Shown here: positions 30,601 through 48,817 of the stretch, piece by piece | How positions within the stretch are numbered: position 1 is the stretch's first letter | Layout: each line of letters begins with the position of its first letter | DNA from: a virus | Reading direction: 5' to 3' (one strand) | Virus record (IMG/VR): IMGVR_UViG_3300033978_000437 | DNA length: 64,000 bases | Made by a program: the position numbers and the translations under genes | The notes under the pieces: model-generated | What the model saw: the letters and a program-made list of their open reading frames with translations, nothing else | The model's database searches: none | Told to the model about the DNA's origin: nothing

Positions 30601-31112
30601 GCACCCGCCATGCACCTCCTTCTTTTGACCTCTTCACCCCAAGGATTACGACTGATGATCATTACATCTGCGGGCACCGGCCCGCTAGGATCAATTGATC
30701 CTAACAAATGGCCTAGTACAAATTCTGCTTCTTTATACTGATGAGGTCCAACTTCTACATCTAAAGTAAAAGGAGAAACTCGTAATGATTCACGGATTAA
30801 ACCCATTAATTCATTACTGTATTCCAACCTCTTTGCTTTAGTTTTTTCACCATCAGCATTTGTTATCGTTTCTTCAACCAGCTTGGATTCGATGTCCCCT
30901 AGACCTAATACATGTCTAAGAAACGCAGAGTTAGAAGGTAAAGGAGGCAAGCCGGGAGCTGCTAAAGGGAATACAGCTCCGCCTAATTGCACTTCATGCA
31001 ATCGTTTTTTATACACCATCTCAACTGCTGCAGAAGAAGTTTTAACCGCTGGAGTAATTCCACCTCCTCCCGCTATCTTTATCTTTCGTGCCATTTCTAC
31101 CTCTTTTTCCAA
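27621..31112 (-). CDS. polA: Family A DNA polymerase with N-terminal uracil-DNA-glycosylase-like domain and 3'-5' exonuclease
   Basis: UDG-like TNLVKFCPP..VVHP; exo VDAEW, YGMYDAD; pol motifs DYVGAEL, AKSVIFGIAYG, QIHDA; alternative start 31094. Confidence 0.93.
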   Translation of the reverse strand: MEKEVEMARKIKIAGGGGITPAVKTSSAAVEMVYKKRLHEVQLGGAVFPLAAPGLPPLPSNSAFLRHVLGLGDIESKLVEETITNADGEKTKAKRLEYSNELMGLIRESLRVSPFTLDVEVGPHQYKEAEFVLGHLLGSIDPSGPVPADVMIISRNPWGEEVKRRRCMAGADGSLLIETFRKLKAFNLTKFYVTNLVKFCPPDYKTTLKAVWIKDCMHLLYQEIKIVQPKYILCLGADVSKALLGGTAGVGEMEGRVEKLRYNVAFTARDQEQHWKEAQVMTVVHPRQVLRDQSAGRQLENGISRFIALTKGVTIGASEVIDHRVVDNHWDLLQQLISIEKDEDKRDSLIAVDAEWHGKHPINKNAYMRTMQISWYEKKALGIKFHEAGGEMTPGFATSRARQLPDKTLKLLNMFFLGGVFKYKDAEEIKEIKFRRKRVVGHFFNADLEWLLDYGINIQACFSCQLFDYEMKAENADKKLFKLYQKEGFTEEEIVPAWYRTKFEGGADTGLMTHAIEETASYKLETLAMRYTSAPRYDKELQHWKISYCKSKGIMNADLDGYGECPDEILLPYGMYDADVTLRLFYKLAVLLDEDYEGNNCREAFWESQIATPAVLEIHRTGITVDKDRIDFLTKRFMNAKNTLEVKIRTEIKWPEFNIRSTQHVRELLYGHLLNGKKDKKTGDVIRLRPEGAVSLNLDPLFDTSKPPKPWSEVKKSGRMAEHAPSTNKLILSLLAQSTTNEGKAKLINQLRDYRFLDQVLKTVLHPPACDDATEESMYDDDGNLEYDDGLASLCCDDGKVRTHVYQTKETGRWSSARPNLQNISKQRDPDYKRLLGAEDYKYTLRSVLKASPGHVMVEADYVGAELFGMAVMSGDENMIKHALRNQLPETHPDYYDIHSQVACFAFKLTCPPTKSGLAAIGKKHIRIVAKSVIFGIAYGRGPKAIAIAAKEQGIEIEVDEAQAVIDAIFLMYPRLSPFFNECKQRATGDYIDPLTGTTVAGRYLCNCYGRFRRFPDANFDRGLAGEFERQAMNYPIQSMIASAVSRALAYIHDYKEKQLKQGRDLFKVLLQIHDAVLLEVPYEHVKHVCEYVLPTFMRDAVPIYPSSLDGLPTGAGPYYLGIEMEVVKHWGELLTAAEARELGLPVGVGGVESCVVNYSKPD

Positions 31113-32179
31113 GAAATAATTACACCTTTATCACCAGCTTGCTTCGTAATATATTCACGAAGCATTGTGCGGGCTAAGGAACCAGGGTCGGTTCCCTCTG
31201 GAAGTTGCACGCTGCAAAATCCGGATTTTAACCGCTCATTTAAATCAGCTTCGATTTCGTTAACCTTTAACGCAAGCTTGTCTTTAACATCTGGATCAAA
31301 CAGCAACACTCCAGAGTAATCTTTGAAATGCTGTCTAAAGAGAGTTTGTTGTTCATTTGTTAAAGTTGCACCTAAGGTGCATACAGCTTGAGGTCCCACT
31401 CGCCACACATCTGTTACCCCCTCGACAATAATACCTACTTCATACTGGGAAGCATTCCCAAGGTTGTAAAGAATATTTCGTCTAGGTGTTCCAGGTGCTG
31501 TGTAATACTTAGGCAAGCTAGATTTCTTCCAATCCGTCTCGAAAGCAGCTCTAGCTTGCCACCCCACCATCTGCTTGTCATGGTAGATAGGAATGATTAA
31601 ACGATTCCTACATATGTACCGGTCACTAGTGTGACACCAATGCACATTGTAAAACCGACCAATCTTATCTGGGTCAAATCCTCGTCCGGCTAGGTACACA
31701 TTGGCTTCATGTGTGCTTGGAAGCTTATCAATCCTAGTGACTTCACCGGGCCAGCTTGTCCTTATTTTTGAAACATCAACTGTTCGTCCTTCACGCAGCT
31801 GAGCTTTGCGAAGATCTACTAAATGACGGCCCACCAGCATCTGCTCTAACTCCTCATAAATATGAGCAGTTTTAAGCGACAGCGGACAACCTCCATTAAA
31901 ACAAGTAGCAAGATGAAGCTGAGGTTTCCCCCATTGATTTTCAGATCCGTAGCAATGGTTAATATAACAACGAAACCTTGTATCGTTGCAGAAGGGACAA
32001 CACACTGCGTAATACTCGCCAGCATGTATAATCACTTCTTTTGGTTTACCTGTAATTAAATCAATGCTTGTCTTTCGTATTTGCTTCTCTCCCACTTGCG
32101 AGATACGCACATTACCAAACACGGCTTTGCACCTACGAAATAAAGCTCGATTTAAAGCATTTTTCTCGTCATTGTTCAT
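31097..32179 (-). CDS. DNA primase (Zn finger + TOPRIM)
   Basis: CPFCND, NRLIIPI, PKYY, IVEGVTD, LFDPD. Confidence 0.82.
   Translation of the reverse strand: MNNDEKNALNRALFRRCKAVFGNVRISQVGEKQIRKTSIDLITGKPKEVIIHAGEYYAVCCPFCNDTRFRCYINHCYGSENQWGKPQLHLATCFNGGCPLSLKTAHIYEELEQMLVGRHLVDLRKAQLREGRTVDVSKIRTSWPGEVTRIDKLPSTHEANVYLAGRGFDPDKIGRFYNVHWCHTSDRYICRNRLIIPIYHDKQMVGWQARAAFETDWKKSSLPKYYTAPGTPRRNILYNLGNASQYEVGIIVEGVTDVWRVGPQAVCTLGATLTNEQQTLFRQHFKDYSGVLLFDPDVKDKLALKVNEIEADLNERLKSGFCSVQLPEGTDPGSLARTMLREYITKQAGDKGVIISWKKR
31216..31229. promoter_or_regulatory. Dyad motif AAAATCCGGATTTT copy
   Basis: Perfect 14-bp palindrome inside the primase 3' end, ~100 bp upstream of polA. Confidence 0.45.
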
Positions 32180-32196: not shown

Positions 32197-33891
32197 TTAA
32201 CTTTCATCTACAATTATGTTTGAAGTATCGGACGGAGCAGGAGTAGCACTTGCGTGATCTTCGTTATCAGCAAAATGATCAAAAGAAGAATCATTTACAT
32301 TTACACCCACAGATTTCATTGTGGACTTCTCCACAATTTGCCCACGGCTATCTATGTGATAGTTGTTAAGCCCTACCACTGAGTTGTACTCGCCATCTAC
32401 ACGGATAATGCTTGGAGGCACTCGCCGGAAACGACGATGCTTCGTACAGGCAATTTGGCCCATCGAGTCTGAATTTAAATTACCTATTACAAAAGAAAAA
32501 TCTAAATTCTCACCAAAGCTTTTACTGCCTTTTGCATCAGTATGATGCAAAGTTTTTGTAGGACTTAACATTGAGTTAGCTGCACCGCTAAGCTGATGTA
32601 ATACAACAGTATGGCAGCTAAATGGTTTACTGATCTCTCTAACAATCCGTGCTACTGCATTTTGATATGTTTTGTGATCTTCTTGCCGTCCGCTCTCTTG
32701 CTGTTTTAGAGTGGTATCTCTATCCACCATCAACCCAAGATAATCGATGATCACATTACGCACATAGCAAGAAGGGCCACGAGTACGCAACTCTAACTTA
32801 ATCCGCTGCACAATCTCATCGATCCCATTACTACCCGCAGTTGGATAATCTTTGTCGCTACCTGAAAAATCTAAACACAGCGTGTGGCCGTTCAACCAAG
32901 TTATGGCATTCTCCACACGAACTCGTTCTGGTTCAAATACCCCATCTTTGATTTCTTGTGCAAATATCTTACGTTCGTAATCTAATGGGGTTTCTGGATC
33001 GTTTAACAAAGAATCTAGCCCTTCCATGCCCATCTTATCTAAGCTGGCCCGATTCACCCTTGCTGCATACATTAACGCACGATGCAGAATCTCGGGTGCC
33101 TTAGCTGCTTCGTAAGTAACCAGCACAGAAATCCCATGCCTACCTTCGCTATTCTCTAACTTCTCTTCATAGGATTGCTTTGCAGCTTCGCACCACAGCA
33201 TGACTGCTAAGGTAGTTTTACAAGTACCATAAGGTGCCATGATGCCATAAACTTCGCCTTCCGCACTACCACCCCCAAGATACTTGTCTAAGAAACCAAG
33301 CCCTGTTGTGCGAATAATCCTAGGGTCACGTTTGTCCCAGCCAGTTTCAAAAGTAAGAGCCGCCTTATCTTTAATGCCCATTGTCTTGAGCATTTCTAAT
33401 TCAAGCAGCGTCTTTTGCAAAACAAAAGGTAGGTCTTCTATTTCTCCGTTTTTGTGAAGAGCTAGTTTTAAATTGTCAGACTGTGCAAACATTAAAAAAC
33501 GTTTGCCCGCTCTAAGTGCAAATTTCTCTAGCCACTTAGTGTGCACATCTTCCCCATCTAATGTGTCCGGATCGGCCGCATAAGACAGAAAATCCTCAAG
33601 ATCTAAACGGCTAGCCTCTGAAATGATTTCAGAATCTTGCTCAAGCATAGATTCTAAGTCTGCCCATATTTCGGTAAAACTGGGTAGACAATTGTTTTCT
33701 TTATGAAAGTCTAATAAAACCCGATAAAGCAATTGATAGCTTTCATCGGCAAAATGAGCGACAGTCAGTTTACTTTTAAAATGAGAAAATATTGTTTCAT
33801 TCTGCATTAGAATTGTAACAAATAATCGCAAGTGAGCAGCTGACAGCCGACCTTGTTTTCGGTCGCTTGGCATGTGCATCCTTTCTCGCAC
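32197..33891 (-). CDS. DnaB-like (SF4) replicative helicase
   Basis: APYGTCKTT, LVTYE, IIDYLGL, VLHQL, KHRR. Confidence 0.8.
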   Translation of the reverse strand: MRERMHMPSDRKQGRLSAAHLRLFVTILMQNETIFSHFKSKLTVAHFADESYQLLYRVLLDFHKENNCLPSFTEIWADLESMLEQDSEIISEASRLDLEDFLSYAADPDTLDGEDVHTKWLEKFALRAGKRFLMFAQSDNLKLALHKNGEIEDLPFVLQKTLLELEMLKTMGIKDKAALTFETGWDKRDPRIIRTTGLGFLDKYLGGGSAEGEVYGIMAPYGTCKTTLAVMLWCEAAKQSYEEKLENSEGRHGISVLVTYEAAKAPEILHRALMYAARVNRASLDKMGMEGLDSLLNDPETPLDYERKIFAQEIKDGVFEPERVRVENAITWLNGHTLCLDFSGSDKDYPTAGSNGIDEIVQRIKLELRTRGPSCYVRNVIIDYLGLMVDRDTTLKQQESGRQEDHKTYQNAVARIVREISKPFSCHTVVLHQLSGAANSMLSPTKTLHHTDAKGSKSFGENLDFSFVIGNLNSDSMGQIACTKHRRFRRVPPSIIRVDGEYNSVVGLNNYHIDSRGQIVEKSTMKSVGVNVNDSSFDHFADNEDHASATPAPSDTSNIIVDES

Positions 33892-33903
33892 AGAAGTACA
33901 TCG

Positions 33904-34671
33904 TTAACACCTTGCAGCTGAAACTATCTCAGCTGCCGCTACACGAAAATCCAACGGAACTAATTTCCCCAACACCGCTGTATACAGTTGGGGAAAGAGA
34001 GTGTAATCCATTGCCGCTAAAAATTCAAACTGCTTTGCTACTTTATTTAATTTTTCAATATGTGGATCTGTTTTTGGCAGACTTTCGCAAGTAGAAGTTG
34101 CAATGCAGTATTTAAATAAAGGAGACAATTCTAATCTAGGGTCAATCAATGCGTAATATACGGATAAACTAAGTGGATACCCATTTCCTTTTTTAAAGAT
34201 AACAATTGCAGTTTTGATCCTTTGGCTTTCCGCAATGAACTGACAGCGTAAATCATTTTCTGCTTTTTTTAAAAAATCAATAACTAGTTCTATAGTGTTA
34301 GGTGCTGCCAACTGGCCTAAAGCAGGCACAGTCAATGCACTACCACGCAATATGTAAAAAAGAACACGAACATAATGAATAGGGTTTAACTGATTCATTT
34401 GCTCAATCTTTTTGTACATAGCTTGCCATTGATTTGTGGTTTTTCTTTCTTCTGGTGTGTCAAACTTAGACTTACCATCTAAGCTTGAAGCAGGCTGATA
34501 AGAAACCGCAAATTCACCTTGGCGAAACCGGTCTAAAACTTGTCTCTCTTGTATATAAGTGTCTTTAAACAATTGTACTTCTGTCGTTAACCCTGTAGCC
34601 TCGTTACCCGATGAAGCTCGAGAATTTGCACCGGGGATAGGAGAGCGACTAAATTTATATTCGTTTTCCAT
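33904..34671 (-). CDS. Hypothetical protein
   Basis: Likely start MENEY at 34671 with AAAGGA RBS. Confidence 0.65.
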   Translation of the reverse strand: MENEYKFSRSPIPGANSRASSGNEATGLTTEVQLFKDTYIQERQVLDRFRQGEFAVSYQPASSLDGKSKFDTPEERKTTNQWQAMYKKIEQMNQLNPIHYVRVLFYILRGSALTVPALGQLAAPNTIELVIDFLKKAENDLRCQFIAESQRIKTAIVIFKKGNGYPLSLSVYYALIDPRLELSPLFKYCIATSTCESLPKTDPHIEKLNKVAKQFEFLAAMDYTLFPQLYTAVLGKLVPLDFRVAAAEIVSAARC

Positions 34672-36157
34672 TGTATTCCTTTTGTAATCCCGAAGATGGA
34701 AAAGATTGTTCCCAGTTATTAAGTGCATAAGAAGCACAGCGGTTTTTTGCTCGTGTTTTAAATGTGTAATTAAACTGATCTAGGTAATCATGGACTTGCC
34801 CATAAGGTTTGTCCGCTGAAATTCTAGATACTCTACCAGGAATTTGAATGTCGTTAATAGGGCTACCGCCACCATCTGCCCTAATTAGAACAGCCAAACT
34901 GTTAAAGGAAACCCCAACATTCCATACAGTAGTGCATATGACTTTTTTAAGTATTCCCTTTTCAAAGTCTTGTGTCAGTTTTTGCCTTCTGTTTAAATCC
35001 ATTAAAGGCTCATCTGCTTTGCAGAAACCTCCACGAGCATAGTGTGCCCGATCCATCTGACTTAACCCATTCTCCATGTATACTAAAGTAAAGTTTGGTA
35101 ACTGTTTCTTTAGGTTAAAAGCATGTTCTATCGTCTCTACTGTAATTAATACCTGCGTATCGTCGTCATAGCGTTTAGCATCTTCTGCTATTCTTCGATT
35201 ACGATACTCGTTACACCAAATACCCTGCCGTTTCTTTTTTACATCTTCTGCGTCCATACATGGATCTTGATCCATCACCACAGAAGTCCATTGGACTTTA
35301 ATAGGAACCACCATGCTGGCAGACTGTGCTTGTGCGTAATTTACTTTAAAAATGACAGGACCAAACATGCCTAAGTTTCTAAAGTCTTTACCATCCCAAC
35401 GAAGATCATGCGATGCAGACAACCCAAAATTACGACTGTTCTGCCACCTTGCCAACTCACCAGAAGCTTTGTCCGCAGAAAGCTCATGACACTCATCCCC
35501 GATAAGGATATCCGCAGTAGCTGGGCTATGATGTAAGGAACCAACTGTATAACACATCACCCGCTTGCCCCGAACATTCTTAGTTCCACCTACAATGCCA
35601 ACATCTCCTACCATCTGGCACAGCTCTGGGTAAATACGATCTCGTAATACAGATACCCGCTTGGTAACCACATCAATTTTTGTTCTTGGCAACAAAGAGG
35701 CAACTAACCCAATCATGAAAGATTTACCGAAGCCGGGAGGGCAATCAAAACGACCGCAGCGGTTTGCTAAAACTTTATCCAGAAATTCCTTTTGATTTGC
35801 TCTAAGCTTATATTTGTTAATGTTCTGCCATTGTGGTTCTAACTTTTTAGGATCCATAGGGGATAGATCTTTAAATTGCACATCATATCCAGCTTGGGTA
35901 AGCGTGCTACGCAGCAGTTTCCAAAACCCATAGAAAGTCACAATGCGTTGTTTGTAATCGATATCCATAAGTGTGTGTTCTTGTACTTCTAATACAGAAA
36001 GACCTTGTTGCTTTCGCTCTTTTGCCTCGTAACCAAAATAACATTTTCGTTCTGTAAAACTTAAAACTGGCTTGAGCAACTCAAGCATGCTATCTGTCGT
36101 TGGGTCTAGATAAAGTGTATTCCCAGTCTTATATAATGTGACAATTTGTTTGTCCAT
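34655..36157 (-). CDS. Superfamily 2 helicase (UvsW/ResIII-like)
   Basis: PPGFGKS, IGDECH, GLSAS, VWNVGV, QIPGRVSR. Confidence 0.9.
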   Translation of the reverse strand: MDKQIVTLYKTGNTLYLDPTTDSMLELLKPVLSFTERKCYFGYEAKERKQQGLSVLEVQEHTLMDIDYKQRIVTFYGFWKLLRSTLTQAGYDVQFKDLSPMDPKKLEPQWQNINKYKLRANQKEFLDKVLANRCGRFDCPPGFGKSFMIGLVASLLPRTKIDVVTKRVSVLRDRIYPELCQMVGDVGIVGGTKNVRGKRVMCYTVGSLHHSPATADILIGDECHELSADKASGELARWQNSRNFGLSASHDLRWDGKDFRNLGMFGPVIFKVNYAQAQSASMVVPIKVQWTSVVMDQDPCMDAEDVKKKRQGIWCNEYRNRRIAEDAKRYDDDTQVLITVETIEHAFNLKKQLPNFTLVYMENGLSQMDRAHYARGGFCKADEPLMDLNRRQKLTQDFEKGILKKVICTTVWNVGVSFNSLAVLIRADGGGSPINDIQIPGRVSRISADKPYGQVHDYLDQFNYTFKTRAKNRCASYALNNWEQSFPSSGLQKEYNGKRI

Positions 36158-36173: not shown

Positions 36174-36201
36174 TTGCATTTTTGGATTAATTGATTAGAA
36201 T
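36174..36201 (+). promoter_or_regulatory. Candidate sigma70-like promoter
   Basis: TTGCAT-N16-TAGAAT, pointing toward a plus-strand terminator ~75 nt away. Confidence 0.35.
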
Positions 36202-36202
36202 G

Positions 36203-36278
36203 CAGCTGTGGGTTGGCGAAGCATCGCACCCGCTACACTTACCATCGGCTGGGCACCGCACCTAGCCGATGGTTTTTT
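36203..36278 (+). ncRNA. Candidate small structured RNA
   Basis: Lies between the candidate promoter and a terminator whose T-tract is on the + strand, where no ORF exists; two hairpins; imperfect 18-bp repeat at 32-bp period. Confidence 0.35.
36241..36278 (+). terminator. Intrinsic terminator
   Basis: 13-bp stem ACCATCGGCTGGG/CCTAGCCGATGGT, 7-nt loop, T6 tail on +. Confidence 0.7.
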
Positions 36279-36280
36279 AA

Positions 36281-36775
36281 TTAATCCATAGTATTATTTT
36301 GAGATTGTCTTCGTGGATGTATGTTCACAATTTCGTAATGTCCATATTTACCAGGCTGCCACGGAGACAACCCTTTATACTTACCTGCAATTTGCATCAA
36401 TGCCCAGAAATCTTGATCGTCTATTTCAGACGGTACTACACAGTTTATTACAACAGTTTGATTAGCCATGATTGATTCATGCAAAGACCAACGCTCTCGC
36501 CCATTAGCAGATTTCTGGTAGAAACAACGAGTTAGACATTTGTCTTTAATCTCCGCATCAAGCCCTATATCCCAACAGATATGCTTAACGGCTTCTTGAT
36601 GCCTACCTAACATCTCTGCAGCTAACTTCATGTTTGCATGATGCCATGTAGCTAAAAACAAAATCTTACCATCTCGACCAGGACTTCGTTGGAACCGAAA
36701 ACGACCTGTCTTCTTTTCTTTTTCATTCCCCAAACTAGGGGTGGTGAAACGAATTCTTACAGATAATTCACGCAC
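36281..36775 (-). CDS. Standalone RAMP (Cas7/Csm3-like RRM-fold) protein
   Basis: N-terminal VRIRFTTPSLG strand and C-terminal Gly-rich loop AGKYKGLSPWQPGKYGHYEI typical of RAMPs. Confidence 0.6.
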   Translation of the reverse strand: MRELSVRIRFTTPSLGNEKEKKTGRFRFQRSPGRDGKILFLATWHHANMKLAAEMLGRHQEAVKHICWDIGLDAEIKDKCLTRCFYQKSANGRERWSLHESIMANQTVVINCVVPSEIDDQDFWALMQIAGKYKGLSPWQPGKYGHYEIVNIHPRRQSQNNTMD

Positions 36776-36777
36776 AG

Positions 36778-37674
36778 CTATTCTCCAAATTGCTTTAAAA
36801 AACTGTCTTTGACTAACTTATTGCTAAAAAATATTCGAGGATCAAACTCAGCATGCTTCACGCTTCCGGATAACCAGTTACGTGCTATAAAATGCAATAA
36901 CCGCTTACAAGTTCGATACACCTCTTTCTTGTCCGTAACATCGCAAGGAATGTCTAGTAAGAGAGGGCTATCCGCTGGCAGAGCTTTTACAGCTTCAACC
37001 AATAGCCGAGCCCTATCTTGTTTAGCATCAAGTTCTGCTGTCTTTTTCCTTATGCGTAAATTCCAAAACTTAGAGAACTTAGCAAAAGGCATTAAACCAA
37101 AATGACTGTTTAACCGAGTCAGCCTATTGGGATGCTTTACATTAAAGTACCAGCGAGGATCTACTATTGAAGCAAGTATATCCAGCACTAGATCGGTGTG
37201 TTGCTCTATCTTTAAAAATTGCCAGAAAGGATAAGTAATATGCTGCGGATACCAGTGCTGCAGTCTATCTTGTATTTTTGGAGAGGAGTCATAAAGCTGT
37301 TCTTGCTTTACCTCTAGTAATAAAAAATTACGATAGCTTGTGCTGTCTATGTGATGCCAAGTATGTGGCAGATTATCATGCGGATTCAGCACAGAAATAC
37401 AATTTAACAACTGCAAACTTGAATTATGATACCTACGGCATATCCGAGGAGAACCCACTAATAAATTACCTTTTATCTCCTTGTTAATCAAAGCTAGGTA
37501 CAAGGAGATAATGACTTTATAATTCTGAGGTACTGCAATCACACGATAGGTCGTTGCCAGCAGTTTACTTGGGCGATACTTTCCAATTACCTGTGTAGGT
37601 ATACCTTCTGGAGTGTTTACCCAAGTAGTGCCATCGTGATCTATGTGAATACAGGTCATAAATTGTCTCAACAA
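36778..37674 (-). CDS. Nop/IS110-like RNA-binding-domain protein
   Basis: HITYPFW..ILASIVDPRWY..RLNSHFGLMP and CKRLLHFIARNW..FDP resemble the IS110 Transposase_20/Nop domain; no obvious intact DEDD N-terminus. Confidence 0.5.
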   Translation of the reverse strand: MLRQFMTCIHIDHDGTTWVNTPEGIPTQVIGKYRPSKLLATTYRVIAVPQNYKVIISLYLALINKEIKGNLLVGSPRICRRYHNSSLQLLNCISVLNPHDNLPHTWHHIDSTSYRNFLLLEVKQEQLYDSSPKIQDRLQHWYPQHITYPFWQFLKIEQHTDLVLDILASIVDPRWYFNVKHPNRLTRLNSHFGLMPFAKFSKFWNLRIRKKTAELDAKQDRARLLVEAVKALPADSPLLLDIPCDVTDKKEVYRTCKRLLHFIARNWLSGSVKHAEFDPRIFFSNKLVKDSFLKQFGE

Positions 37675-39812
37675 ACTTCACCCTTCTTTATTTCAACCAG
37701 TTGATCAAAAACTTTACCGAGTTCTTGTACATGAGTAATGACAATCAATTGATGGTCTGCCCCTACCTTCTTTGCAAGTTGTTGTAATGCCTCTTGGAAG
37801 AAGCTTACATTATCTGCATCTAAGCCAGAGGTCGGCTCATCAAGAAACATCATCCCTATATTATGCCCAAAAACACGATCTAAAGCTGCACGAAAAGCGA
37901 TAGAAAGTAGAACTTTCTGCCCTCCGCTTAACTGTTTTGCCTTAACTGGCTCTTGTCCGGCAAAAAATACATTAAAGGTTAGGTCTGCATCTGCCTCCAC
38001 ATAGAACGGATCGTTAAACATTTGAAGGTTGGCATTGATGTCTCCAACCAACAATTGGAGGTTTGACTGTGACACGAGCTTGGGCAAGTTATTCCAATGG
38101 AATACATCTCCAGCGGAACTAACTGTGTCCAATAGCTTACGCACCTTTTCACGCTCTGCCATCTTAGCCGTAAGCTGTTCTAAGCTTTGCTTAGTACGAA
38201 GCCAAGACCTCTTAGCTTCTTGAAAAGCTCCTACAGATTTCTGCCAAACAGCAAGAGCTTCTTGATGCTGAGCTAACCTTATCTTTGCAGTCGAGACTTT
38301 ATCCACAGCGGGCATCTGCTTAATTTGTTTACTTAGTTTACTTTTTTGCTCTAACACATTTTTAAGCTCACCTTGAAAACCTGCTATGTGATGCTGTTCT
38401 TGTTTAACATCTTTCTCTAAGTAAAACTTTTGTTGCTCTATATCAAGATTTCGAGCGATCAAAGCCTTGGCTGTATCTATGTGCTCATCGTTTACCCCTG
38501 CTAGTTTCTTGGAAATTAACTCAACTTCTTTTTCTACTTCTTCTAATTCTGCTGCCGCATCCATACAAAGTTGTTGGCAAATTTTATATCCCGCTTGATA
38601 CTGCTCTAACTTCTTGTCATAGCTTTCGGAGTAAGTCAAAATACGAACAACTTCTGCAAGTCTGGTTACATTCTTTAGATACTCTACTTTTACCCGCTCA
38701 ACATATTCTTTTGTAACTTCTTGCTGGCATTGCGTACAAAGACGATTGTCCGAATGTATCAACAATGTAGTTACTTGTTTTATTTGAAACTCAAGCTCAT
38801 GCTTTTCTTTAGTCAGTTGTTTTTGAAGTTTTAAATCCACATAATCTTTATTAGGTTTAGGCTTACTTCGTTTCTTAAGCTCAGCCACTGCTACATGTTC
38901 ATCGTGGATGTCTTTTTTAGAGAAGAGGTTAAGTCGAGCTGTCTTATGCACTTCCACTAGGTCTAACAATTCTTGAGCTACTGCTAACTTGTTTTTAAAC
39001 TTAGCTTGCCAAGCTTCTCGCCTAGCCAGCTTATGCTTAGATTGGCTTTGCTGCAGCTCTTCTAAAGATAGTTCTAGCCTTTCAATTTTATGTTTTACTT
39101 CTTTTAACTGAGTTTGAGCTTCTTTACCTAACTCATACTGCGAAAGCAATAACTGCCGTGCTTCTAGCTCTTCTTCCGTTAAGATGTGTAGCTTGGCAGC
39201 TTTACCTACCTTACTGTGCTCCGTCATCGCTGTGCGAGTTTCAGTAATAGCGTCTTCTAGCTCCACGCTATTGTCCACTACCTCGATACTCTGCTGCCTT
39301 GCCACATAATCCATACATACCTTGTGAATGCTAGAAGCTGCTTCCGTGCCACACAAGTACTGAAAGGTCTTAGCTCTCTCGCTAGCTGTCTGATCCAAGA
39401 AGCTAAACATCTCCCACTGATTGACAAACACATACTTGTCAATCACTGCTTTACTGATGTCGAGGTAGTTAATAACTGCATCGTTTACATCCGTAGCCTT
39501 CTCAAACACAGATACACCGATCTTAAACTCGTTCTTGTTAGGTCGCAGCCACCTTGTCAAGGTAAACGATTGACCTTGGTGTTTCCCTATTACACGGATG
39601 TAACTTGGATCACTACTGCCATTTGTAATGATCTCGGCTTTAGTACCGCCAAGGCGCGTGAAGTCATTAGTCAACGCTGCATAAATTGCGTTAACTAATG
39701 TTGATTTACCCGCCCCATTGGCTCCTACAATACCCACCAAACCACGCCCAAACTTAACAGTTAAGCTTTGGTGCGGGCCTATGTTCTTTAGCTCTACTTG
39801 TTCAATATACAT
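37668..39812 (-). CDS. sbcC: SbcC/Rad50-like SMC ATPase
   Basis: GANGAGKS, coiled coils, CTQC zinc hook, LSGGQ, FLDEPT, ITH. Confidence 0.9.
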   Translation of the reverse strand: MYIEQVELKNIGPHQSLTVKFGRGLVGIVGANGAGKSTLVNAIYAALTNDFTRLGGTKAEIITNGSSDPSYIRVIGKHQGQSFTLTRWLRPNKNEFKIGVSVFEKATDVNDAVINYLDISKAVIDKYVFVNQWEMFSFLDQTASERAKTFQYLCGTEAASSIHKVCMDYVARQQSIEVVDNSVELEDAITETRTAMTEHSKVGKAAKLHILTEEELEARQLLLSQYELGKEAQTQLKEVKHKIERLELSLEELQQSQSKHKLARREAWQAKFKNKLAVAQELLDLVEVHKTARLNLFSKKDIHDEHVAVAELKKRSKPKPNKDYVDLKLQKQLTKEKHELEFQIKQVTTLLIHSDNRLCTQCQQEVTKEYVERVKVEYLKNVTRLAEVVRILTYSESYDKKLEQYQAGYKICQQLCMDAAAELEEVEKEVELISKKLAGVNDEHIDTAKALIARNLDIEQQKFYLEKDVKQEQHHIAGFQGELKNVLEQKSKLSKQIKQMPAVDKVSTAKIRLAQHQEALAVWQKSVGAFQEAKRSWLRTKQSLEQLTAKMAEREKVRKLLDTVSSAGDVFHWNNLPKLVSQSNLQLLVGDINANLQMFNDPFYVEADADLTFNVFFAGQEPVKAKQLSGGQKVLLSIAFRAALDRVFGHNIGMMFLDEPTSGLDADNVSFFQEALQQLAKKVGADHQLIVITHVQELGKVFDQLVEIKKGEVC

Positions 39813-39820
39813 GGTAACTC

Positions 39821-40942
39821 CTAAGCATGAGATTTAACCCACTGTTGTAATGCTTGTTCGGGGTCAGGGCTTTGTAAAAGTGTTAATACTAGATCATGGA
39901 CTAAAGGTTTCTCTGATTTGCTTATGCATGCGTCCACGCATTGCATCATGCCTATGCGATCTCCAGAGACAACTTGAACATCTTGTTCTTCGGACTCAAA
40001 TTGTTTATTTTCTTTTTGCTTGAAAAACAAATGAGCTTTTGATTCAAAGTGTTGTTTGAATCTACCTACCAACTCGATGTCATTAGAGGTGTGCAACAAA
40101 TGCAGCAAAGGCATTGCTATTTCTGCCGGTATTGCATTGTCTTCAGCATAGGCTGCAGCCTTAGTCAGTTCTGCTTCTGCCATTAGTTTCAACACTTCCC
40201 AAGAGCCTTTTGCTTTATCTACAGTTAAGCGAATACATCTACGAGAGTACAAAGGCAGAGCTTCTATTATAAGCTTCTCTGTCGATTTGTATTTTTTATC
40301 GTAATTCTTAATCAAAAATACTTTCTTGTTTTCTGGTTCTGCAATATTACGCATGTGCGTGCTACCAGGACTCAGCACAGTCAAATCCCCATGGTGATGA
40401 ATCAAATTCATGTGGTAATCACCGGTGATTAGATACTTCACATTCGGAGGAATGTCATTGAAACACCCTTGTGGTTTAGCCATGTCTCCCATAAAGTCTC
40501 GCCACACTTGATGGCAAACAAGTATAGAAGACTCCTTTGCTAAATCACTTTTAAGAAATTGTTTTAATTTCTCTTCATTGTTCTGGTAATCGCATCCGGC
40601 AATTTGCCAGCCATCAAAAGTTCTGTTGTGTTCATGCAGCCAAACGGCCTTAGTGGCTGCTTGTAACCAAGGGCTTTCTTGATACTCATGCTGCCCTTGG
40701 TTATAGTAGACTCCAATACCTGTATCCGTTAACTTACGAACACCGGCTAAAAGTTTATGGATGGGTTCCGAGACATTGACTTGCTTGTCAAGGATGTCCC
40801 CTGCAAGAATGACTGCCTCGACTCCATGATCGAGGGCTAGAGTTACAATCTGGTCCCACGCATAATAACTATCTCCCTCAATAGGGCGATGAGTCCAGAC
40901 TCGATTACTGAGATGAAGATCACTTGTTACTAAGATATTCAT
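39821..40942 (-). CDS. sbcD: SbcD/Mre11-like metallophosphoesterase nuclease
   Basis: TSDLHL, AGDILD, GQHE, GDYH, PGS; start MNILV at 40942 with AAGGAG RBS. Confidence 0.85.
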   Translation of the reverse strand: MNILVTSDLHLSNRVWTHRPIEGDSYYAWDQIVTLALDHGVEAVILAGDILDKQVNVSEPIHKLLAGVRKLTDTGIGVYYNQGQHEYQESPWLQAATKAVWLHEHNRTFDGWQIAGCDYQNNEEKLKQFLKSDLAKESSILVCHQVWRDFMGDMAKPQGCFNDIPPNVKYLITGDYHMNLIHHHGDLTVLSPGSTHMRNIAEPENKKVFLIKNYDKKYKSTEKLIIEALPLYSRRCIRLTVDKAKGSWEVLKLMAEAELTKAAAYAEDNAIPAEIAMPLLHLLHTSNDIELVGRFKQHFESKAHLFFKQKENKQFESEEQDVQVVSGDRIGMMQCVDACISKSEKPLVHDLVLTLLQSPDPEQALQQWVKSHA

Positions 40943-40981
40943 GAGATACTCCTTATGGTTAAAAATGTACAAATAGTTGCT

Positions 40982-41389
40982 ATGCCCATTTGTGAGCTGT
41001 GTGATCGTCTTACCATCGCACAACTAAAACTGCAACGATTGCCGTCGGATGAACTAGACAAAGGTTTACTGCGAAAACAAATCGCATACTATGAAACTGG
41101 GATTGATTATACCGATCCTAAAATCTGTGACTTGATAGCAGCTTTGCTTGATATCAATGGACAAATGTGGGATGCCGAACACGACATACGCAAAGGATTA
41201 GATGAAATACTAGGGCTCTCCGAAATAGGAAGACGAGCTGTTAAAATCCGGAATTTAAACTGCATTAGAATTGCCATCAAAAATAAGATTACTATGCTGG
41301 CCGGACAACCTGAGTTTAGCGATTGCAAAATGAATCATGTTAGTCAACGTTCTAACAACTCAGATACAACTGAATCGCCATCGTTGTAG
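40982..41389 (+). CDS. Conserved phage protein (DUF6165-like)
   Basis: ELCDRLTIAQLK..INGQMWDAEHDIR..AVKIRNLN..RIAIKNKI pattern. Confidence 0.5.
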   Translation: MPICELCDRLTIAQLKLQRLPSDELDKGLLRKQIAYYETGIDYTDPKICDLIAALLDINGQMWDAEHDIRKGLDEILGLSEIGRRAVKIRNLNCIRIAIKNKITMLAGQPEFSDCKMNHVSQRSNNSDTTESPSL

Positions 41390-41667: not shown

Positions 41668-42169
41668 TGTCTGTTCCTCCTTGAATATGGCTTAGCTCTC
41701 CAAGAGCACCTTTAAGCCATTTGAAAAACTCTTTCCTTGTTTTCTTTGCCAACTCCATCCCTTTAGCTTCTCGCCTCTCGAAGTCGAGAAATGCTACAGA
41801 CAGCAATAGTGCAGCTGCCTTCACTGTTGTGATGCGGTGAAACACACACGCATCTGAATTCCATTCATCTTCCTCTTCGTAATTCCTTACGATGGCATCA
41901 TACTTCTCTCGGATGCGTCTCAAGGCTTGCCACGACATAAACATATCGGGCACAGCCAGCCGTGTAAACTGGTTTATGGACGCATCCGTTGCCAAAGGCT
42001 CTTGACCCATCTTCCTAATAAAAGGAGTGTCGGGTGCATTTAACCGAATCGCTTCCTCATTAGCCCAGTCAAACTGTTCCGCAGCCCACTGATATAATTC
42101 TGTCAGATTAAAGAATAAGTCTCGGGGGCTGCCGCTGTTCTTAGGGTATGGGGGTGAATTAATTTCCAT
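41624..42169 (-). CDS. Hypothetical protein
   Basis: 181-aa ORF. Confidence 0.6.
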   Translation of the reverse strand: MEINSPPYPKNSGSPRDLFFNLTELYQWAAEQFDWANEEAIRLNAPDTPFIRKMGQEPLATDASINQFTRLAVPDMFMSWQALRRIREKYDAIVRNYEEEDEWNSDACVFHRITTVKAAALLLSVAFLDFERREAKGMELAKKTRKEFFKWLKGALGELSHIQGGTDNDEIDFDTFQGEED

Positions 42170-42983
42170 CGATGTCTCCTCTTTGTTTGTATTTAGTAAT
42201 GCGTAGTAAATGAGCGTCAGATCTAGTCAACAATGAGTAAAAACTTTGCAGATTGTCAGAAGCAAACAAGGTTGCCCAAGGAAAACGCAAAACTGTCGCC
42301 ATTGCTCGAACAATGTTAGTGTTAGTTCCTCCTTCAAAAGTTGTAAAAGTTAAGCTAGGGTGTGCAGCAAGCCTAGTCAATTGTTTAGACAAATCACAAT
42401 CAGCGGGCACAATCTGAATGCCAACATGCCGTAGTTGTAAGCTACCTTTTTCTGGGTCGATATAAGGAGCACACAATTGAACAGTAGCCAAAGCAGAACA
42501 CCACTGATGTGGGCCATAGTCAGAACGAAAGAAAGGTAATTTTGTTAAATTCCAGTTTTTAGTTCGTTGCCAGGCCACGACCTTGCAAGGTTGTCGCACA
42601 TCTTTAGGGATGCACGACAACGTTACATAGATAGGATACAACCACCTACGCACAAAACACCATGGGCACACTTTTGGATTATTGCAAAACCGAGTAATAG
42701 GTTCGACATCAAACCCAACTGGGCAACAGTTTAAAGCGTAAGTGTAAGCAAGCCGCTTTGCCGGATCTTCTCGCATTACTCGATAGTATTGCCATCGAAG
42801 ATTTTTCTGCAGCAAATAAGTTCGAATTGCATCTGAGCTGTGCGTAGTAGGCAGTGTCTGCAAAACACAATGGCGTAAAAGTGCCAAAGCCGTATGCTCG
42901 GGTTTAGGTTTCAGCTTGTGCTTGACCACACCTTTAATGAACTTAACCTCTGTCTCTGTCTCAACGATTTCTATGTTGTCCAT
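42159..42983 (-). CDS. Hypothetical protein with Cys cluster
   Basis: NCC..FCNNPKVCPWC. Confidence 0.65.
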   Translation of the reverse strand: MDNIEIVETETEVKFIKGVVKHKLKPKPEHTALALLRHCVLQTLPTTHSSDAIRTYLLQKNLRWQYYRVMREDPAKRLAYTYALNCCPVGFDVEPITRFCNNPKVCPWCFVRRWLYPIYVTLSCIPKDVRQPCKVVAWQRTKNWNLTKLPFFRSDYGPHQWCSALATVQLCAPYIDPEKGSLQLRHVGIQIVPADCDLSKQLTRLAAHPSLTFTTFEGGTNTNIVRAMATVLRFPWATLFASDNLQSFYSLLTRSDAHLLRITKYKQRGDIDGN

Positions 42984-46780: not shown

Positions 46781-46978
46781 TTATACTCCTTCAATTTTTT
46801 CTTTTTCTTTAAAATCTTTTTTAGCTTGTTCAACTACTACGCTACGAATGTAGTCTCCCCAACGCATGCCTTTGTTGGCAGCAGCAAAAGCTATGAGGGC
46901 AAAATGCTCTCGAGGAAACAAAACTTTTACTTGTCTATCCGAAGTTGTAGTTATTTTGTCTGCTTTAATCTTTTTCAT
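46781..46978 (-). CDS. Ribbon-helix-helix-like DNA-binding protein, paralog B
   Basis: VKVLFP..ALIAFAAANKGMRWGDYIRSVVVEQAKKDF. Confidence 0.6.
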   Translation of the reverse strand: MKKIKADKITTTSDRQVKVLFPREHFALIAFAAANKGMRWGDYIRSVVVEQAKKDFKEKEKIEGV

Positions 46979-46983
46979 GTTAC

Positions 46984-47196
46984 TTACTCCATTTCTTTGC
47001 TAATGATTAATTGTGCTTCTTTGAAATCTTTTTTGGCTTGTTCAAGTACTACATTACGTATGTAGTCTCCCCAACGTATTTTTTTGTTAGCAGCAGCAAA
47101 AACTATAAGAGCATACTGCACATGCGAAAAAATAAGTTTTATTGGTTTCTCTTGGTTTTTATCTGGTTTAGCTTTAACCGATTCGTTTTTCTTCAT
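46984..47196 (-). CDS. Ribbon-helix-helix-like DNA-binding protein, paralog A
   Basis: IKLIFS..ALIVFAAANKKIRWGDYIRNVVLEQAKKDF. Confidence 0.6.
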   Translation of the reverse strand: MKKNESVKAKPDKNQEKPIKLIFSHVQYALIVFAAANKKIRWGDYIRNVVLEQAKKDFKEAQLIISKEME

Positions 47197-48628: not shown

Positions 48629-48817
48629 TTAAAATTGTTGTGACCAATTTTCAGTTCCAGGTCTACCGATAGACCATAAATCTGAATACGCATTGTTTAC
48701 AAATCTGGATTTTGACATTGCATTGAGATTACTCAACGACCAAATCCTATTTCTATTCCAAGCTCTAGCAGGGAGCTTAGCATCCCACCCACTTACCATA
48801 TTTAGTCTTCTTATCAT
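48629..48817 (-). CDS. Ser/Trp-rich microprotein 17 (MIRRL...NWSQQF)
   Basis: ATGA overlap with the preceding unit, TGGAG RBS. Confidence 0.7.
   Translation of the reverse strand: MIRRLNMVSGWDAKLPARAWNRNRIWSLSNLNAMSKSRFVNNAYSDLWSIGRPGTENWSQQF
48701..48713. promoter_or_regulatory. Dyad motif AAAATCCRGATTTT copy
   Basis: AAATCTGGATTTT inside the last array unit, ~85 bp upstream of the next gene. Confidence 0.4.

What the first reader, a model, noticed from the sequence alone, without database searches (positions are those of the whole stretch)
36281..37674. Nop/IS110-like gene coupled to a standalone RAMP/Cas7-like gene inside the replication operon
Seen: two ORFs 2 bp apart, between sbcC and an SF2 helicase. 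The 164-aa protein has the RAMP first strand and Gly-rich loop. The 298-aa protein has HxxxPFW..ILASIVDPRW..LNSHFGLxP and a KRLLHFIARNW helix. Known: Nop domains bind guide RNAs in IS110 bridge recombinases, TIGR-Tas and box C/D snoRNPs; RAMPs form crRNA backbones. No CRISPR array, cas1, IS ends or TIGR-style array is visible. Inference: a possibly undescribed two-component RNA-guided module joining both ancient RNA-binding lineages, perhaps recruiting the neighbouring helicase or nuclease.
Basis: partly seen in the sequence, partly recalled or inferred. Interest (0 to 1): 0.85.

Follow-up and report, generated by a model that had tools for sequence, protein, structure and literature searches.

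The report
Array-less phage RAMP, dead TasR-like, small RNA
A large uncultured phage keeps a miniature CRISPR/VIPR-type RAMP protein and a nuclease-dead TasR/IS110-like protein as fixed neighbours in its DNA-replication operon. There is no guide array, but next to them lies a conserved small RNA gene whose bases match the start region of the phage's own replicative helicase gene.

Summary
Two minus-strand ORFs, 2 bp apart, lie between an SbcC-like gene and an SF2 helicase gene.

- **164-aa protein:** the model is confident (pLDDT 93.6) and has a RAMP fold. Its best matches are Csm/Cmr/Cas7 (Z up to 11.3). Its G-loop aligns with phage SUSP1 Vipr (hhalign 89%).
- **298-aa protein:** it has a Nop-type domain closest to TIGR-TasR (Z 11.6), behind a RuvC-like domain without conserved catalytic residues.
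- **Conservation:** both are core genes. The order SbcD-SbcC-Nop-like-RAMP-helicase-p260-DnaB-like-primase-PolA holds in 31 of 33 related loci. The RAMP is usually the best conserved gene of the block.
- **No array:** neither this window nor relatives' 157-194 kb contigs hold a CRISPR, TIGR or VIPR (YNNGG) array. Two of the three Vipr G-loop residues that read GGY are replaced.
- **Small RNA gene:** a roughly 70-nt gene on the opposite strand (36202-36279) has its own promoter and terminator. Its 9-mer CCGCUACAC pairs with a site upstream of the DnaB-like gene, with two compensatory double changes in relatives. Cognate-specific complementarity extends to that gene's ribosome-binding region (permutation p<5e-5).

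My best reading is a domesticated, fixed-guide RNA-protein module or regulator of replication, not a programmable defence system. No result shows that the proteins bind the RNA. The scan had already found this module in other genomes.

The parts
36778..37674 (-). Nop-like protein (298 aa; the likely start is the ATG at 37659, giving 293 aa). It has an N-terminal RNase H/RuvC-like domain without a conserved catalytic set and a C-terminal Nop/TasR/IS110-type helical domain.
   Evidence: AF2 model: pLDDT 62.6 overall and about 80-90 in most of residues 130-270. VIA: TasR 9mty_B Z 11.6 over residues 117-277, TasH Z 8.7, ISCro4 Z 7.8, Nop5 Z 5.5. The N-domain matches RuvC, RuvX, TnpB and Cas12 at Z 5-6. 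Foldseek top hits are TasR and IS621. No conserved DEDD set or Ser.
36281..36775 (-). Mini-RAMP (164 aa): a single RRM core, a beta-hairpin thumb and a C-terminal glycine-rich loop. It is Cas7/Vipr-like.
   Evidence: AF2 pLDDT 93.6. Foldseek: type VII Cas7 and Csm3 at E 4e-6. VIA Z 11.3, with every top match a RAMP. phrog_4652 (the SUSP1 Vipr family) at E 0.0099. hhalign against the Vipr profile gives 89%.
36202..36279 (+). Small RNA gene of roughly 70 nt, antisense to the operon. It has a 5' two-part hairpin, a linker carrying the invariant CCGCUACAC (36230-36238), and an intrinsic terminator hairpin at 36241-36273 followed by T6.
   Evidence: Sequence and terminator scan. The fold has z -5.0 and the same architecture appears in at least 11 of 12 relatives folded. 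10 of 13 terminator pairs show compensatory changes. The covariance model hits once per locus and once in the window. No Rfam match.
36175..36201 (+). Sigma-70-type promoter of the small RNA: TTGCAT, 16 nt, TAGAAT.
   Evidence: Read. The same -35/-10 arrangement (TTGnnT, 16-18 nt, TAnAAT/TATAGT) is present in the relatives' sequences printed.
33936..33944 (-). Box 1 is the mRNA-sense sequence GUGUAGCGG in the 3' end of the p277 gene. It lies 45-70 nt upstream of the DnaB-like start and is complementary to the small RNA 9-mer.
   Evidence: the site sits at the same place in 11 of 12 relatives with all 9 pairs kept, two double compensatory changes and three wobbles. Synonymous positions are unusually conserved.
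33886..33891 (-). Box 2 (weak in this phage) is GUGCGA, directly 5' of the Shine-Dalgarno sequence of the DnaB-like gene. It is complementary to small RNA bases UCGCAC, which adjoin the 9-mer.
   Evidence: In relatives the equivalent box is 13-15 nt long. It is cognate-specific: permutation p<5e-5, control p 0.55.
37668..41023 (-). SbcC-like ATPase (37668-39812) and SbcD-like phosphoesterase (39821-41023), immediately upstream.
   Evidence: Pfam SMC_N/AAA_23/SbcC_Walker_B and Metallophos; PHROG 77 and 100.
34655..36157 (-). SF2 helicase (XPB-like), immediately downstream of the small RNA gene.
   Evidence: Pfam Helicase_C/ResIII and PHROG 16. Weak PDB sequence match to XPBII, E 3e-5.
32197..34737 (-). 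p277 (33904-34737, no known family) and the DnaB-like helicase gene (32197-33891; probable ATG start at 33879 or 33873). This is the putative target gene of the small RNA.
   Evidence: Weak Pfam DnaB_C/DnaB matches; start region read.

Best explanation
**Shown**
- The 164-aa gene encodes a minimal single-RRM RAMP of the Cas7/Vipr kind.
- The 298-aa gene encodes a compact TasR/IS110-like protein: a RuvC-like domain without a conserved catalytic set, plus a Nop-type domain.
- Both are vertically inherited core genes of the recombination-replication operon of a clade of large (about 155-235 kb) uncultured phages.
- No guide array accompanies them.
- Between the RAMP gene and the SF2 helicase gene lies an independently transcribed small RNA gene of roughly 70 nt on the opposite strand.
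- Part of that RNA is complementary, in a co-varying and phage-specific way, to the region just upstream of the DnaB-like replicative helicase gene 2.3 kb further down the operon.

**Inferred**
- The small RNA is a fixed 'guide' that pairs with the DnaB-like message, or with the DNA at that site. In this way it would set how much replicative helicase is made.
- The RAMP and the Nop-like protein are its protein partners. The RAMP would hold the single-stranded linker next to a hairpin, as Cas5, Cas6 and Cas7 hold crRNA. The Nop-type domain would hold the hairpins, as TasR and IS110 hold their RNAs.
- On this reading the module is a domesticated, non-programmable relative of VIPR and dead-TasR silencers, turned on the phage's own replication gene.
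For: **Folds.** RAMP: pLDDT 93.6, Z up to 11.3, and only RAMPs among the top 43 matches. Nop domain: TasR Z 11.6, TasH 8.7, ISCro4 7.8.

**Link to Vipr.** phrog_4652 is the SUSP1 Vipr family, and the RAMP matches it at E 0.0099. hhalign of the two profiles gives 89%, E 2e-6, over helix 2, the G-loop and strand 4.

**Core-gene status.** Synteny is conserved in 31 of 33 loci, down to about 20% identity of the Nop-like protein. In most of the relatives compared the RAMP is the most conserved gene of the block, for example 83% against 72% for the helicase, 65% for DnaB and 45% for SbcC in L010.

**Small RNA gene.** It has a promoter, a terminator with a T-tract only on the + strand, and a conserved two-hairpin fold. 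The strand asymmetry of G-U against A-C pairs favours the + strand.

**Target.**
- A 9/9 pairing is kept in 11 of 12 relatives, with two double compensatory changes (L013, L015) and three wobble-compatible changes.
- Third codon positions inside the box are conserved at 1.0, 0.67 and 1.0, against a background mean of 0.53.
- With the box masked, cognate small RNA locus against DnaB-like start region gives p<5e-5; a control region gives p 0.55.
- Matches of 13-15 nt lie next to the Shine-Dalgarno sequence in L010, L012 and L016.

**Precedent.** Dead TasR proteins and Vipr are RNA-guided transcriptional repressors, and each TasR spacer pairs with 9 nt (bioRxiv 10.64898/2026.09.09.750476; 10.64898/2026.04.26.720920).
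Against: - Nothing shows that either protein binds this RNA. The only link is position.
- L034 keeps a small-RNA-like gene but has no RAMP, and L013 keeps the RAMP and the RNA but has no Nop-like gene. The three parts are therefore separable.
- The small RNA could be an ordinary protein-independent antisense regulator.
- Its single-stranded stretch is short (about 5-10 nt), which leaves little room for a RAMP filament.
- In this phage the second pairing box is only 6 nt. Duplex energies at start regions were no better than those of shuffled RNAs.
- Two identical sense-strand boxes could instead be binding sites for a protein, or be kept alike by gene conversion.
- The extreme conservation of the RAMP would also fit a direct structural role on replication or recombination intermediates.
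- The N-terminal half of the 298-aa model is of low confidence.
Confidence: 0.4

Rival explanations
1. The two proteins are replication or recombination factors that no longer use RNA. The RAMP binds ssDNA or RNA-DNA intermediates such as primers, R-loops or D-loops. The dead RuvC/Nop protein binds branched DNA, working with SbcCD, the SF2 helicase and the UvsX-like recombinase. The small RNA next door is an independent antisense regulator of the DnaB-like gene.
For: - The genes hold a fixed place between SbcCD and the helicases in all relatives.
- In most comparisons the RAMP is more conserved than the helicases, SbcC and SbcD, and in both loci that hold the polymerase gene it also exceeds the polymerase.
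- There is no array, and no catalytic residues are conserved.
- A UvsX-like recombinase is encoded nearby.
- The small RNA persists where the RAMP is missing.
Against: - Every close structural relative of both proteins is an RNA-binding protein.
- The tryptophan of the RAMP G-loop, which stacks on guide RNA in Vipr, is kept.
- A conserved small RNA gene sits exactly at the end of the RAMP gene across the clade. That would be a coincidence under this reading.
Confidence: 0.35
2. It is a genuine programmable system (VIPR-like or TIGR-Tas-like) used against competing phages, satellites or the host. Its variable guides lie elsewhere in the genome or have a form that escaped detection.
For: - VIPR loci are two-gene loci (RAMP plus accessory gene) in phages, and some carry only one vrRNA.
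- Xu et al. leave open whether the array-less viral TasR clade has another guide source.
- Only 64 kb of a genome likely to be 155-235 kb was seen here.
Against: - The window holds no YNNGG, NNNGG, YNNNG or NNNNG runs beyond what shuffles give.
- Relatives' 157-194 kb contigs hold no more pentamer runs than the reversed-pattern control.
- The only repeat array in the window is protein-coding.
- Vipr residues D177 and R179, which read GGY, are replaced by an invariant Pro and a variable residue.
- The genes are core and slowly evolving rather than variable, as conflict genes tend to be.
- The adjacent RNA is conserved, not hypervariable.
Confidence: 0.08
3. The RAMP is a decoy or anti-defence protein. 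It would mimic Cas7 or Vipr to soak up host crRNAs or rival phages' vrRNAs, and the Nop-like protein would do the same for TIGR or bridge RNAs.
For: Both are stripped-down, apparently non-catalytic copies of guide-binding proteins and are carried by a phage.
Against: - Anti-defence genes are usually accessory, fast-evolving and patchy. Here the RAMP is the most conserved gene of a core replication operon in most of the relatives compared.
- Only 2 of about 185,000 species' genomes hold a relative, both on MAG contigs (one of them 87% identical to this RAMP), so no host system for it to mimic is apparent.
Confidence: 0.05

Closest known systems
Vipr, the RAMP of VIPR systems (Escherichia phage SUSP1 type; bioRxiv 10.64898/2026.04.26.720920 and 10.64898/2026.04.26.720927; PDB 36pp; phrog_4652)
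   Same: - It is a phage-encoded, standalone, single-RRM RAMP with a thumb and a G-loop.
- It sits in a two-gene arrangement beside a non-coding RNA gene.
- The G-loop segment aligns at profile level (89%, E 2e-6), and the tryptophan that stacks on the guide is kept.
   Different: - There is no GGY/NN pentamer repeat RNA in the window or in relatives' near-complete contigs.
- D177 and R179 of the GGY pocket are replaced.
- The protein is shorter (164 aa against about 195).
- Similarity outside the G-loop is undetectable by sequence.
- The partner gene is not related to Vap1.
- It is a core replication-operon gene, not an accessory locus.
- The adjacent RNA is conserved and matches the phage's own genome.
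TIGR-Tas TasR, especially the catalytically dead TasR repressors and the array-less 'divergent tas clade' of compact TasR in dense viral genomes (Faure et al. 2025, PMC12045711; Xu et al., bioRxiv 10.64898/2026.09.09.750476)
   Same: - The architecture is a RuvC-like N-domain plus a Nop-type C-domain of about 290 aa (Z 11.6 to 9mty_B).
- No catalytic set is conserved.
- No long coiled-coil helices are predicted.
- There is no array, and the gene lies in a tightly packed viral genome.
- The 9-nt pairing box equals the length of one TasR spacer.
   Different: - An 84-sequence profile finds no sequence-level match to any Tas, IS110 or Nop entry in Pfam or the PDB.
- No box C/D motifs or dual-spacer unit were recognised in the adjacent RNA.
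- Identity with the published divergent clade could not be checked, because no sequences were available.
- The RAMP neighbour is not mentioned in either paper.
IS110-family bridge-RNA recombinases (IS621, ISCro4)
   Same: The domain order is the same, and so is the helix-hairpin 'GLxP' motif region (LNSHFGLMP). Fold matches are Foldseek E about 0.1 and VIA Z 7.8 over residues 3-271.
   Different: It has no conserved DEDD residues, no conserved serine nucleophile, no IS ends and no multi-copy element. It is single-copy, syntenic and vertically inherited.
CRISPR class 1 backbone RAMPs (Csm3, Cmr4, type VII Cas7)
   Same: These are the best structural matches, covering nearly the whole protein (Z 9-11, 140-156 residues aligned).
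   Different: The window has no CRISPR array, and none of the genes examined is a cas gene. The protein is much smaller than Csm3 or Cmr4. Sequence identity is 8-14%.
Antisense RNA control of replication genes in plasmids and phages (CopA/RNA I type; from general knowledge)
   Same: It is a short, highly structured RNA with its own promoter and terminator. Its exposed bases pair close to the ribosome-binding site of a replication gene.
   Different: It acts on a site 2.3 kb away rather than on its own antisense partner. It sits next to two proteins that have guide-RNA-binding folds.

Membership tests
RAMP superfamily (Cas5/6/7, Vipr) | RRM (ferredoxin-like) core with a beta-hairpin thumb and a C-terminal glycine-rich loop | tested here: met
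   AF2 pLDDT 93.6, with secondary structure b-a-b-b-b-b-a-b and a G-loop at 131-146. VIA Z 11.3 to 6.0, exclusively to RAMPs, in the top 43 rows. Foldseek finds 74 hits at E<=1e-3, and every listed hit is a CRISPR effector-complex entry.
CRISPR-Cas system | A CRISPR repeat-spacer array and further cas genes in the neighbourhood | tested here: not met
   There is no repeat-spacer array in the 64 kb. The neighbours are SbcCD, helicases, primase and polymerase.
VIPR system | vrRNA: tandem YNNGG (GGY/NN) pentamer repeats (9-16 units; at least 4 in the authors' screen) next to vipr | tested here: not met
   The longest run is 3 units. Windowed counts are no better than shuffles for YNNGG, NNNGG, YNNNG and NNNNG. 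Relatives' 157-194 kb contigs hold no more 5-unit runs than the reversed-pattern control.
VIPR system | Vipr protein homology (PSI-BLAST-connected family; SUSP1 type = phrog_4652) | tested here: inconclusive
   phrog_4652 E 0.0099 and PDB 36pp_D E 0.73, both over the G-loop only. hhalign 89%, E 2e-6, over 39 columns. Only type II Vipr could be compared.
VIPR system | Residues that read the GGY motif (SUSP1 H17, R138, D177, W178, R179) | tested here: not met
   In the hhalign alignment D177 corresponds to the invariant P138, W178 to W139 (kept), and R179 to the variable Q140. H17 and R138 lie outside the aligned stretch.
VIPR system | An adjacent vap accessory gene of a described class (vap1-6) | tested here: inconclusive
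   A partner gene is adjacent, but it shows no similarity to SUSP1 Vap1. Sequences of vap2-6 were not available. The text of the paper names WH, HTH, HNH, nuclease and helicase types, and no Nop type.
TIGR-Tas | Nop-type guide-binding domain | tested here: met
   VIA: 9mty_B (TasR) Z 11.6, rmsd 3.9, 143 residues over 117-277. 21kl_A (TasH) Z 8.7. Nop5 3nvm Z 5.5. The fold is from a model with pLDDT about 80-90 in most of residues 130-270.
TIGR-Tas | TIGR array (dual-repeat or stem-loop units with two spacers and box C/D motifs) beside tas | tested here: not met
   No tandem or interspersed repeat lies within the operon. The only adjacent RNA is a single two-hairpin gene. My inspection for box C/D motifs was by eye only.
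TIGR-Tas (TasR, active) | RuvC catalytic acidic residues | tested here: not met
   Across 84 family members, D12 is present in only 57. The helix-1 position is Asn in 82, and no other acidic column in the N-domain is conserved. Residue correspondence rests on fold order and not on a residue-level superposition.
TIGR-Tas / IS110 / Nop (sequence families) | A match to PF01548, PF02371 or PF01798, or to the sequence of a solved Tas or IS110 protein | tested here: not met
   No Pfam hit for any of 84 members at E<=0.01. No PDB sequence hit at E<=10 with either the 11- or the 84-sequence profile.
IS110 insertion sequences | DEDD RuvC residues, a C-terminal serine nucleophile, multi-copy mobile element with ends and a bridge RNA | tested here: not met
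   No DEDD set or Ser is conserved. The gene is single-copy and strictly syntenic.
Box C/D snoRNP Nop5-like | Partner proteins fibrillarin and L7Ae; a k-turn box C/D RNA | not tested
   There is only a weak fold match (Z 5.5 and 4.8). I did not search for the partner proteins.

The most novel reading that the evidence does not exclude
The RAMP, the dead TasR-like protein and the neighbouring small RNA form one ribonucleoprotein with a single hard-wired guide. It recognises the phage's own DnaB-like helicase locus, as mRNA or as DNA. It would be a domesticated, or perhaps ancestral, pre-array form of RNA-guided silencing that controls viral replication. It would also supply the 'alternative guide RNA source' left open for the array-less viral TasR clade, and it would be the first system to join a RAMP and a Nop-type guide binder on one RNA.
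Probability: 0.25. Interest if true: 0.9.

Novelty: new variant of a known kind. Interest (0 to 1): 0.7.

Why it matters
RAMPs (CRISPR, VIPR) and Nop-type proteins (box C/D, IS110, TIGR-Tas) are the two great lineages of guide-RNA-binding proteins, and they have not been reported working together. In this clade of environmental phages they are fixed neighbours in a core replication operon. The RAMP is the best conserved gene of the block in most relatives compared. They have no array, and they sit beside a small RNA that matches the phage's own replicative helicase gene.

If the three parts act together, this would show guide-RNA machinery used for a virus's own gene control. That bears on how programmable systems arose or decayed. 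It would also answer the question that Xu et al. left open about array-less viral TasR proteins. If the parts do not act together, it is still a clear case of guide-binding folds recruited into DNA replication. Either outcome can be tested by expression in a laboratory host.

Tried and rejected
- **Family searches.** Pfam and PHROG searches of both proteins gave nothing, apart from the weak phrog_4652 hit. tblastn against 50,697 phage records found no match.
- **Profile searches.** Profiles of the Nop-like family matched no Pfam family and no PDB sequence. The ESM Atlas gave no usable hit.
- **VIPR-type guides.** Strict and windowed pentamer scans of the window gave nothing above chance. A 5-unit pattern in five relatives' records gave no more matches than the reversed-pattern control.
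- **The repeat region at 48.7-51.7 kb.** I considered this 6-nt-periodic UCUUGG region as a possible guide array for a Cas7-like 6-nt binder and rejected it. It consists of about 16 open reading frames of 55-75 codons, each with a GGAG ribosome site, most of them with ATGA start/stop overlaps, so it is protein-coding.
- **Known RNA families.** No Rfam family matched the small RNA, even at E<=1.
- **Vap1.** It is unrelated to the Nop-like protein.
- **A second, opposite-strand 'spacer'.** The sequence GCAGCUG at the 5' edge of the small RNA resembles the sequence next to box 1. It is palindromic, probably lies upstream of the transcription start, and is not conserved in relatives, so I dropped it.
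- **Duplex energies.** Duplex energies at 69 start regions ranked the DnaB-like gene first, but the energies were no better than those of shuffled RNAs.
- **5' hairpin alignment.** MAFFT aligned it poorly, so RNAalifold and the covariance model captured only the terminator. The case for the 5' hairpin rests on the single-sequence folds.
Full report
**1. Observation**

The window is all phage: terminase, DNA methyltransferase, a UvsX-like recombinase, thymidylate kinase and a UDG-PolA fusion. Nearly all genes lie on the minus strand and GC is about 42%. The gene order on the minus strand is:

- SbcD-like, 39821-41023
- SbcC-like, 37668-39812
- the 298-aa ORF, 36778-37674
- the 164-aa ORF, 36281-36775
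- a 123-nt gap
- SF2 helicase, 34655-36157
- p277, 33904-34737
- DnaB-like, 32197-33891
- primase, 31097-32179
- UDG-PolA, 27621-31112

**2. The 164-aa protein is a RAMP**

It has no Pfam hit. There are more than 95 homologue clusters, all unnamed metagenomic proteins on contigs of up to 235 kb.

With a 45-sequence alignment, AlphaFold2 gives pLDDT 93.6. Foldseek against the PDB gives 74 hits at E<=1e-3, led by type VII Cas7, Csm3 and Cmr4. An exhaustive VIA search gives Z 11.3 (Csm), 11.1 (Cmr-beta) and 10.6 (gRAMP). Only CRISPR RAMPs appear in the top 43 rows; the first unrelated fold has Z 5.9.

At sequence level the only signals are phrog_4652 (E 0.0099) and PDB 36pp 'SUSP1 Vipr protein' (E 0.73), both over residues 112-149. 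I confirmed that phrog_4652 is the Vipr gene of phage SUSP1 (E 2e-98). I then built a 33-sequence Vipr profile and compared profiles. hhalign gives 89% probability, E 2e-6, over 39 columns covering helix 2, the G-loop and the last strand.

VIPR systems were described in 2026. Vipr is a standalone phage RAMP with an accessory vap gene and vrRNAs made of 9-16 YNNGG repeats plus a structured tail (bioRxiv 10.64898/2026.04.26.720920).

**3. It is not a canonical VIPR**

- The window has no pentamer run longer than 3 units. Windowed counts for YNNGG, NNNGG, YNNNG and NNNNG are within the range of shuffles.
- Four relatives' contigs of 157-194 kb, 76-94% complete, have no more 5-unit runs than the reversed-pattern control.
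- In SUSP1 Vipr the GGY motif is read by H17, R138, D177, W178 and R179, and D177A and R138A abolish silencing (bioRxiv 10.64898/2026.04.26.720927). In the alignment, D177 corresponds to an invariant proline (P138), R179 to a variable residue, and only W178 is kept as W139.

**4. The 298-aa protein is a compact TasR/IS110-like protein without a catalytic set**

It has no Pfam or PDB sequence match, even with an 84-member profile. An exhaustive profile search finds 569 representatives at E<=1e-3.

The model is mediocre overall (pLDDT 62.6) but about 80-90 in most of residues 130-270. Foldseek's top hits are TIGR-TasR (E 3.5e-3, probability 0.99) and then the ISCro4 and IS621 bridge recombinases. 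VIA gives:

- TasR 9mty_B: Z 11.6 (143 residues over 117-277)
- TasH: Z 8.7
- ISCro4: Z 7.8 over residues 3-271
- Nop5: Z 5.5
- residues 1-107: RNase H/RuvC folds (TnpB, Cas12, RuvX, poxvirus resolvase) at Z 5-6

Across the family the first-strand Asp is present in only 57 of 84 members. The helix-1 position, where RuvC enzymes have Glu, is Asn in 82 of 84. No other acidic column in the N-domain and no serine is conserved. The most conserved residues (H145, D172-P173-R174-W175, G193, W267, F277, F283) lie in the Nop-type domain.

Xu et al. (bioRxiv 10.64898/2026.09.09.750476) report 'one long branch' of compact TasR proteins. These lack the coiled coil and any array, and are encoded in densely packed viral genomes. 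The authors call their guide source an open question. This family fits that description, but I could not verify identity. Neither TIGR paper mentions a RAMP neighbour. No paper in the library contains 'Nop domain', 'RAMP' and 'phage' together.

**5. Both are core genes of one operon**

In 33 related loci from IMG/VR, ENA, Logan and MAGs, the order SbcD-SbcC-Nop-like-RAMP-helicase-p260-DnaB-like-primase-UDG/PolA recurs. It holds even where the Nop-like protein is only about 20% identical. The pair is adjacent in 31 loci. L013 lacks the Nop-like gene and L034 lacks the RAMP.

The RAMP is the most conserved protein of the block in most comparisons, and the Nop-like protein is the least conserved or among the least. 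In L010 the identities are RAMP 83%, helicase 72%, DnaB 65%, SbcC 45% and Nop-like 39%. In L003 the RAMP is 76% identical and PolA 68%.

Among about 185,000 prokaryotic species' genomes, only two MAG contigs (Gemmataceae, 87% identity; Nanopelagicales) carry a relative. This is the profile of an essential viral gene, not of a conflict gene.

**6. The gap holds a small RNA gene on the other strand**

On the + strand the sequence reads TTGCAT (36175), 16 nt, TAGAAT (36196-36201). About 70 nt of 61% GC follows, and then a 13-bp hairpin (36241-36273) followed by T6. On the operon strand the same hairpin has no U-tract.

The promoter, the two-hairpin architecture and the terminator recur in relatives (z-scores -3.8 to -6.9). 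10 of 13 terminator pairs show compensatory changes. Wobble pairs favour the + strand: G-U on the + strand would be A-C on the minus strand.

A covariance model finds the element once per locus and once in the 64 kb. No Rfam family matches it.

**7. The small RNA matches the DnaB-like gene's upstream region**

The linker carries an invariant CCGCUACAC (36230-36238). Its complement, GUGUAGCGG, occurs once more in the window. That copy is on the mRNA strand at 33936-33944, in the last codons of p277 and 45-70 nt before the DnaB-like start.

- The site is at the same place in 11 of 12 relatives, with all nine pairs intact.
- L013 has changed A-U to G-C, and L015 has changed U-A to C-G, both on both sides. 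Three further changes are wobble-compatible.
- The box lies in codons F-[R/C]-V-A-A. Their third positions are conserved at 1.0, 0.67 and 1.0. The mean is 0.53 at 25 other conserved four-fold codons of the same gene, and only one of those reaches 1.0.
- A second, phage-specific match lies next to the Shine-Dalgarno sequence of the DnaB-like gene. It is 14/14 nt in L010, 14/15 in L012 and 13/13 in L016. In this window it is only 6 nt (UCGCAC to GUGCGA, 33886-33891), contiguous with the 9-mer on the RNA.
- With box 1 masked, cognate pairs score far above non-cognate ones: 0 of 20,000 permutations reach the observed sum. A control region inside the gene gives p 0.55.
- Plain duplex energies were not better than those of shuffled RNAs, so the case rests on covariation and position.

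An earlier agent had reported a similar match on another genome. I tested it independently here.

**8. Reading**

*Shown:*
- two guide-binding folds, fixed and adjacent in a replication operon;
- no array, and no conserved catalytic set in the RuvC-like domain;
- a conserved small RNA gene whose bases co-vary with the DnaB-like 5' region.

*Inferred:*
- the RNA regulates the replicative helicase gene, which I consider likely;
- the two proteins are its partners. This is plausible from their folds and position, and from the precedent of Vipr and dead TasR acting as RNA-guided repressors with 9-nt spacers. It is untested.

The main rival is that the proteins act on DNA or replication intermediates and the RNA is an independent antisense regulator. 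L034 fits this rival: it has the RNA but no RAMP. A programmable system with hidden guides and an anti-defence decoy both fit the conservation pattern poorly.

**9. Novelty**

Each part belongs to a known kind: a Vipr-like RAMP, an array-less TasR-like protein and an antisense RNA regulator. The combination, the replication context and the self-directed fixed RNA are not in the papers I could search. I class it as a new variant of a known kind. The same module was found earlier by this scan on several other genomes of the clade. My fold, synteny, array and RNA-target results were obtained here and agree with those notes.

Noticed in passing
window 48629-51624, minus strand: A tandem array of about 16 small ORFs of 55-75 codons. 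Most begin MIR[KR], each is preceded by GGAG, and most are joined by ATGA start/stop overlaps. They encode tryptophan-rich peptides full of SW repeats (for example SWSWSVSWTRSWSWSGPW). Ser is almost always TCT, which gives a UCUUGG hexamer periodicity. There are no Pfam hits, and the function is unknown.
   Followed up: partly
window 27621-31112, minus strand: A DNA polymerase A of 1163 aa with an N-terminal uracil-DNA-glycosylase-like domain. The same UDG-PolA fusion is annotated by Pfam in the relatives' contigs.
   Followed up: partly
L013:1849-4492 and L034:6001-7216: There are natural single-gene losses. L013 has the RAMP and the small RNA but no Nop-like gene between SbcC and the RAMP. 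L034 has the Nop-like gene and a promoter-hairpin-terminator small-RNA-like element but no RAMP. These are useful natural controls for whether the three parts depend on each other.
   Followed up: partly
window 33913-33935, minus strand: An 8-bp hairpin (GCAGCUGA...UCAGCUGC) lies directly 3' of the small RNA target box, within the end of the p277 gene. It could present or hide the site.
   Followed up: no
window 46794-47151: Two direct copies of a 146-nt stretch (77% identical, 212 nt apart) lie in a region of short ORFs.
   Followed up: no
window 61336-61389: Two tandem 27-nt copies (85% identical) lie just downstream of the stop codon of the 758-aa ORF at 61394-63670.
   Followed up: no
window 42159-42983, minus strand: A 274-aa ORF with cysteine motifs (CPVGF...CPWCFVRRW) lies upstream of the SbcD-like gene. 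It has no Pfam or PHROG match. Most large ORFs of the window also lack any PHROG match, so the phage lineage is poorly charted.
   Followed up: partly
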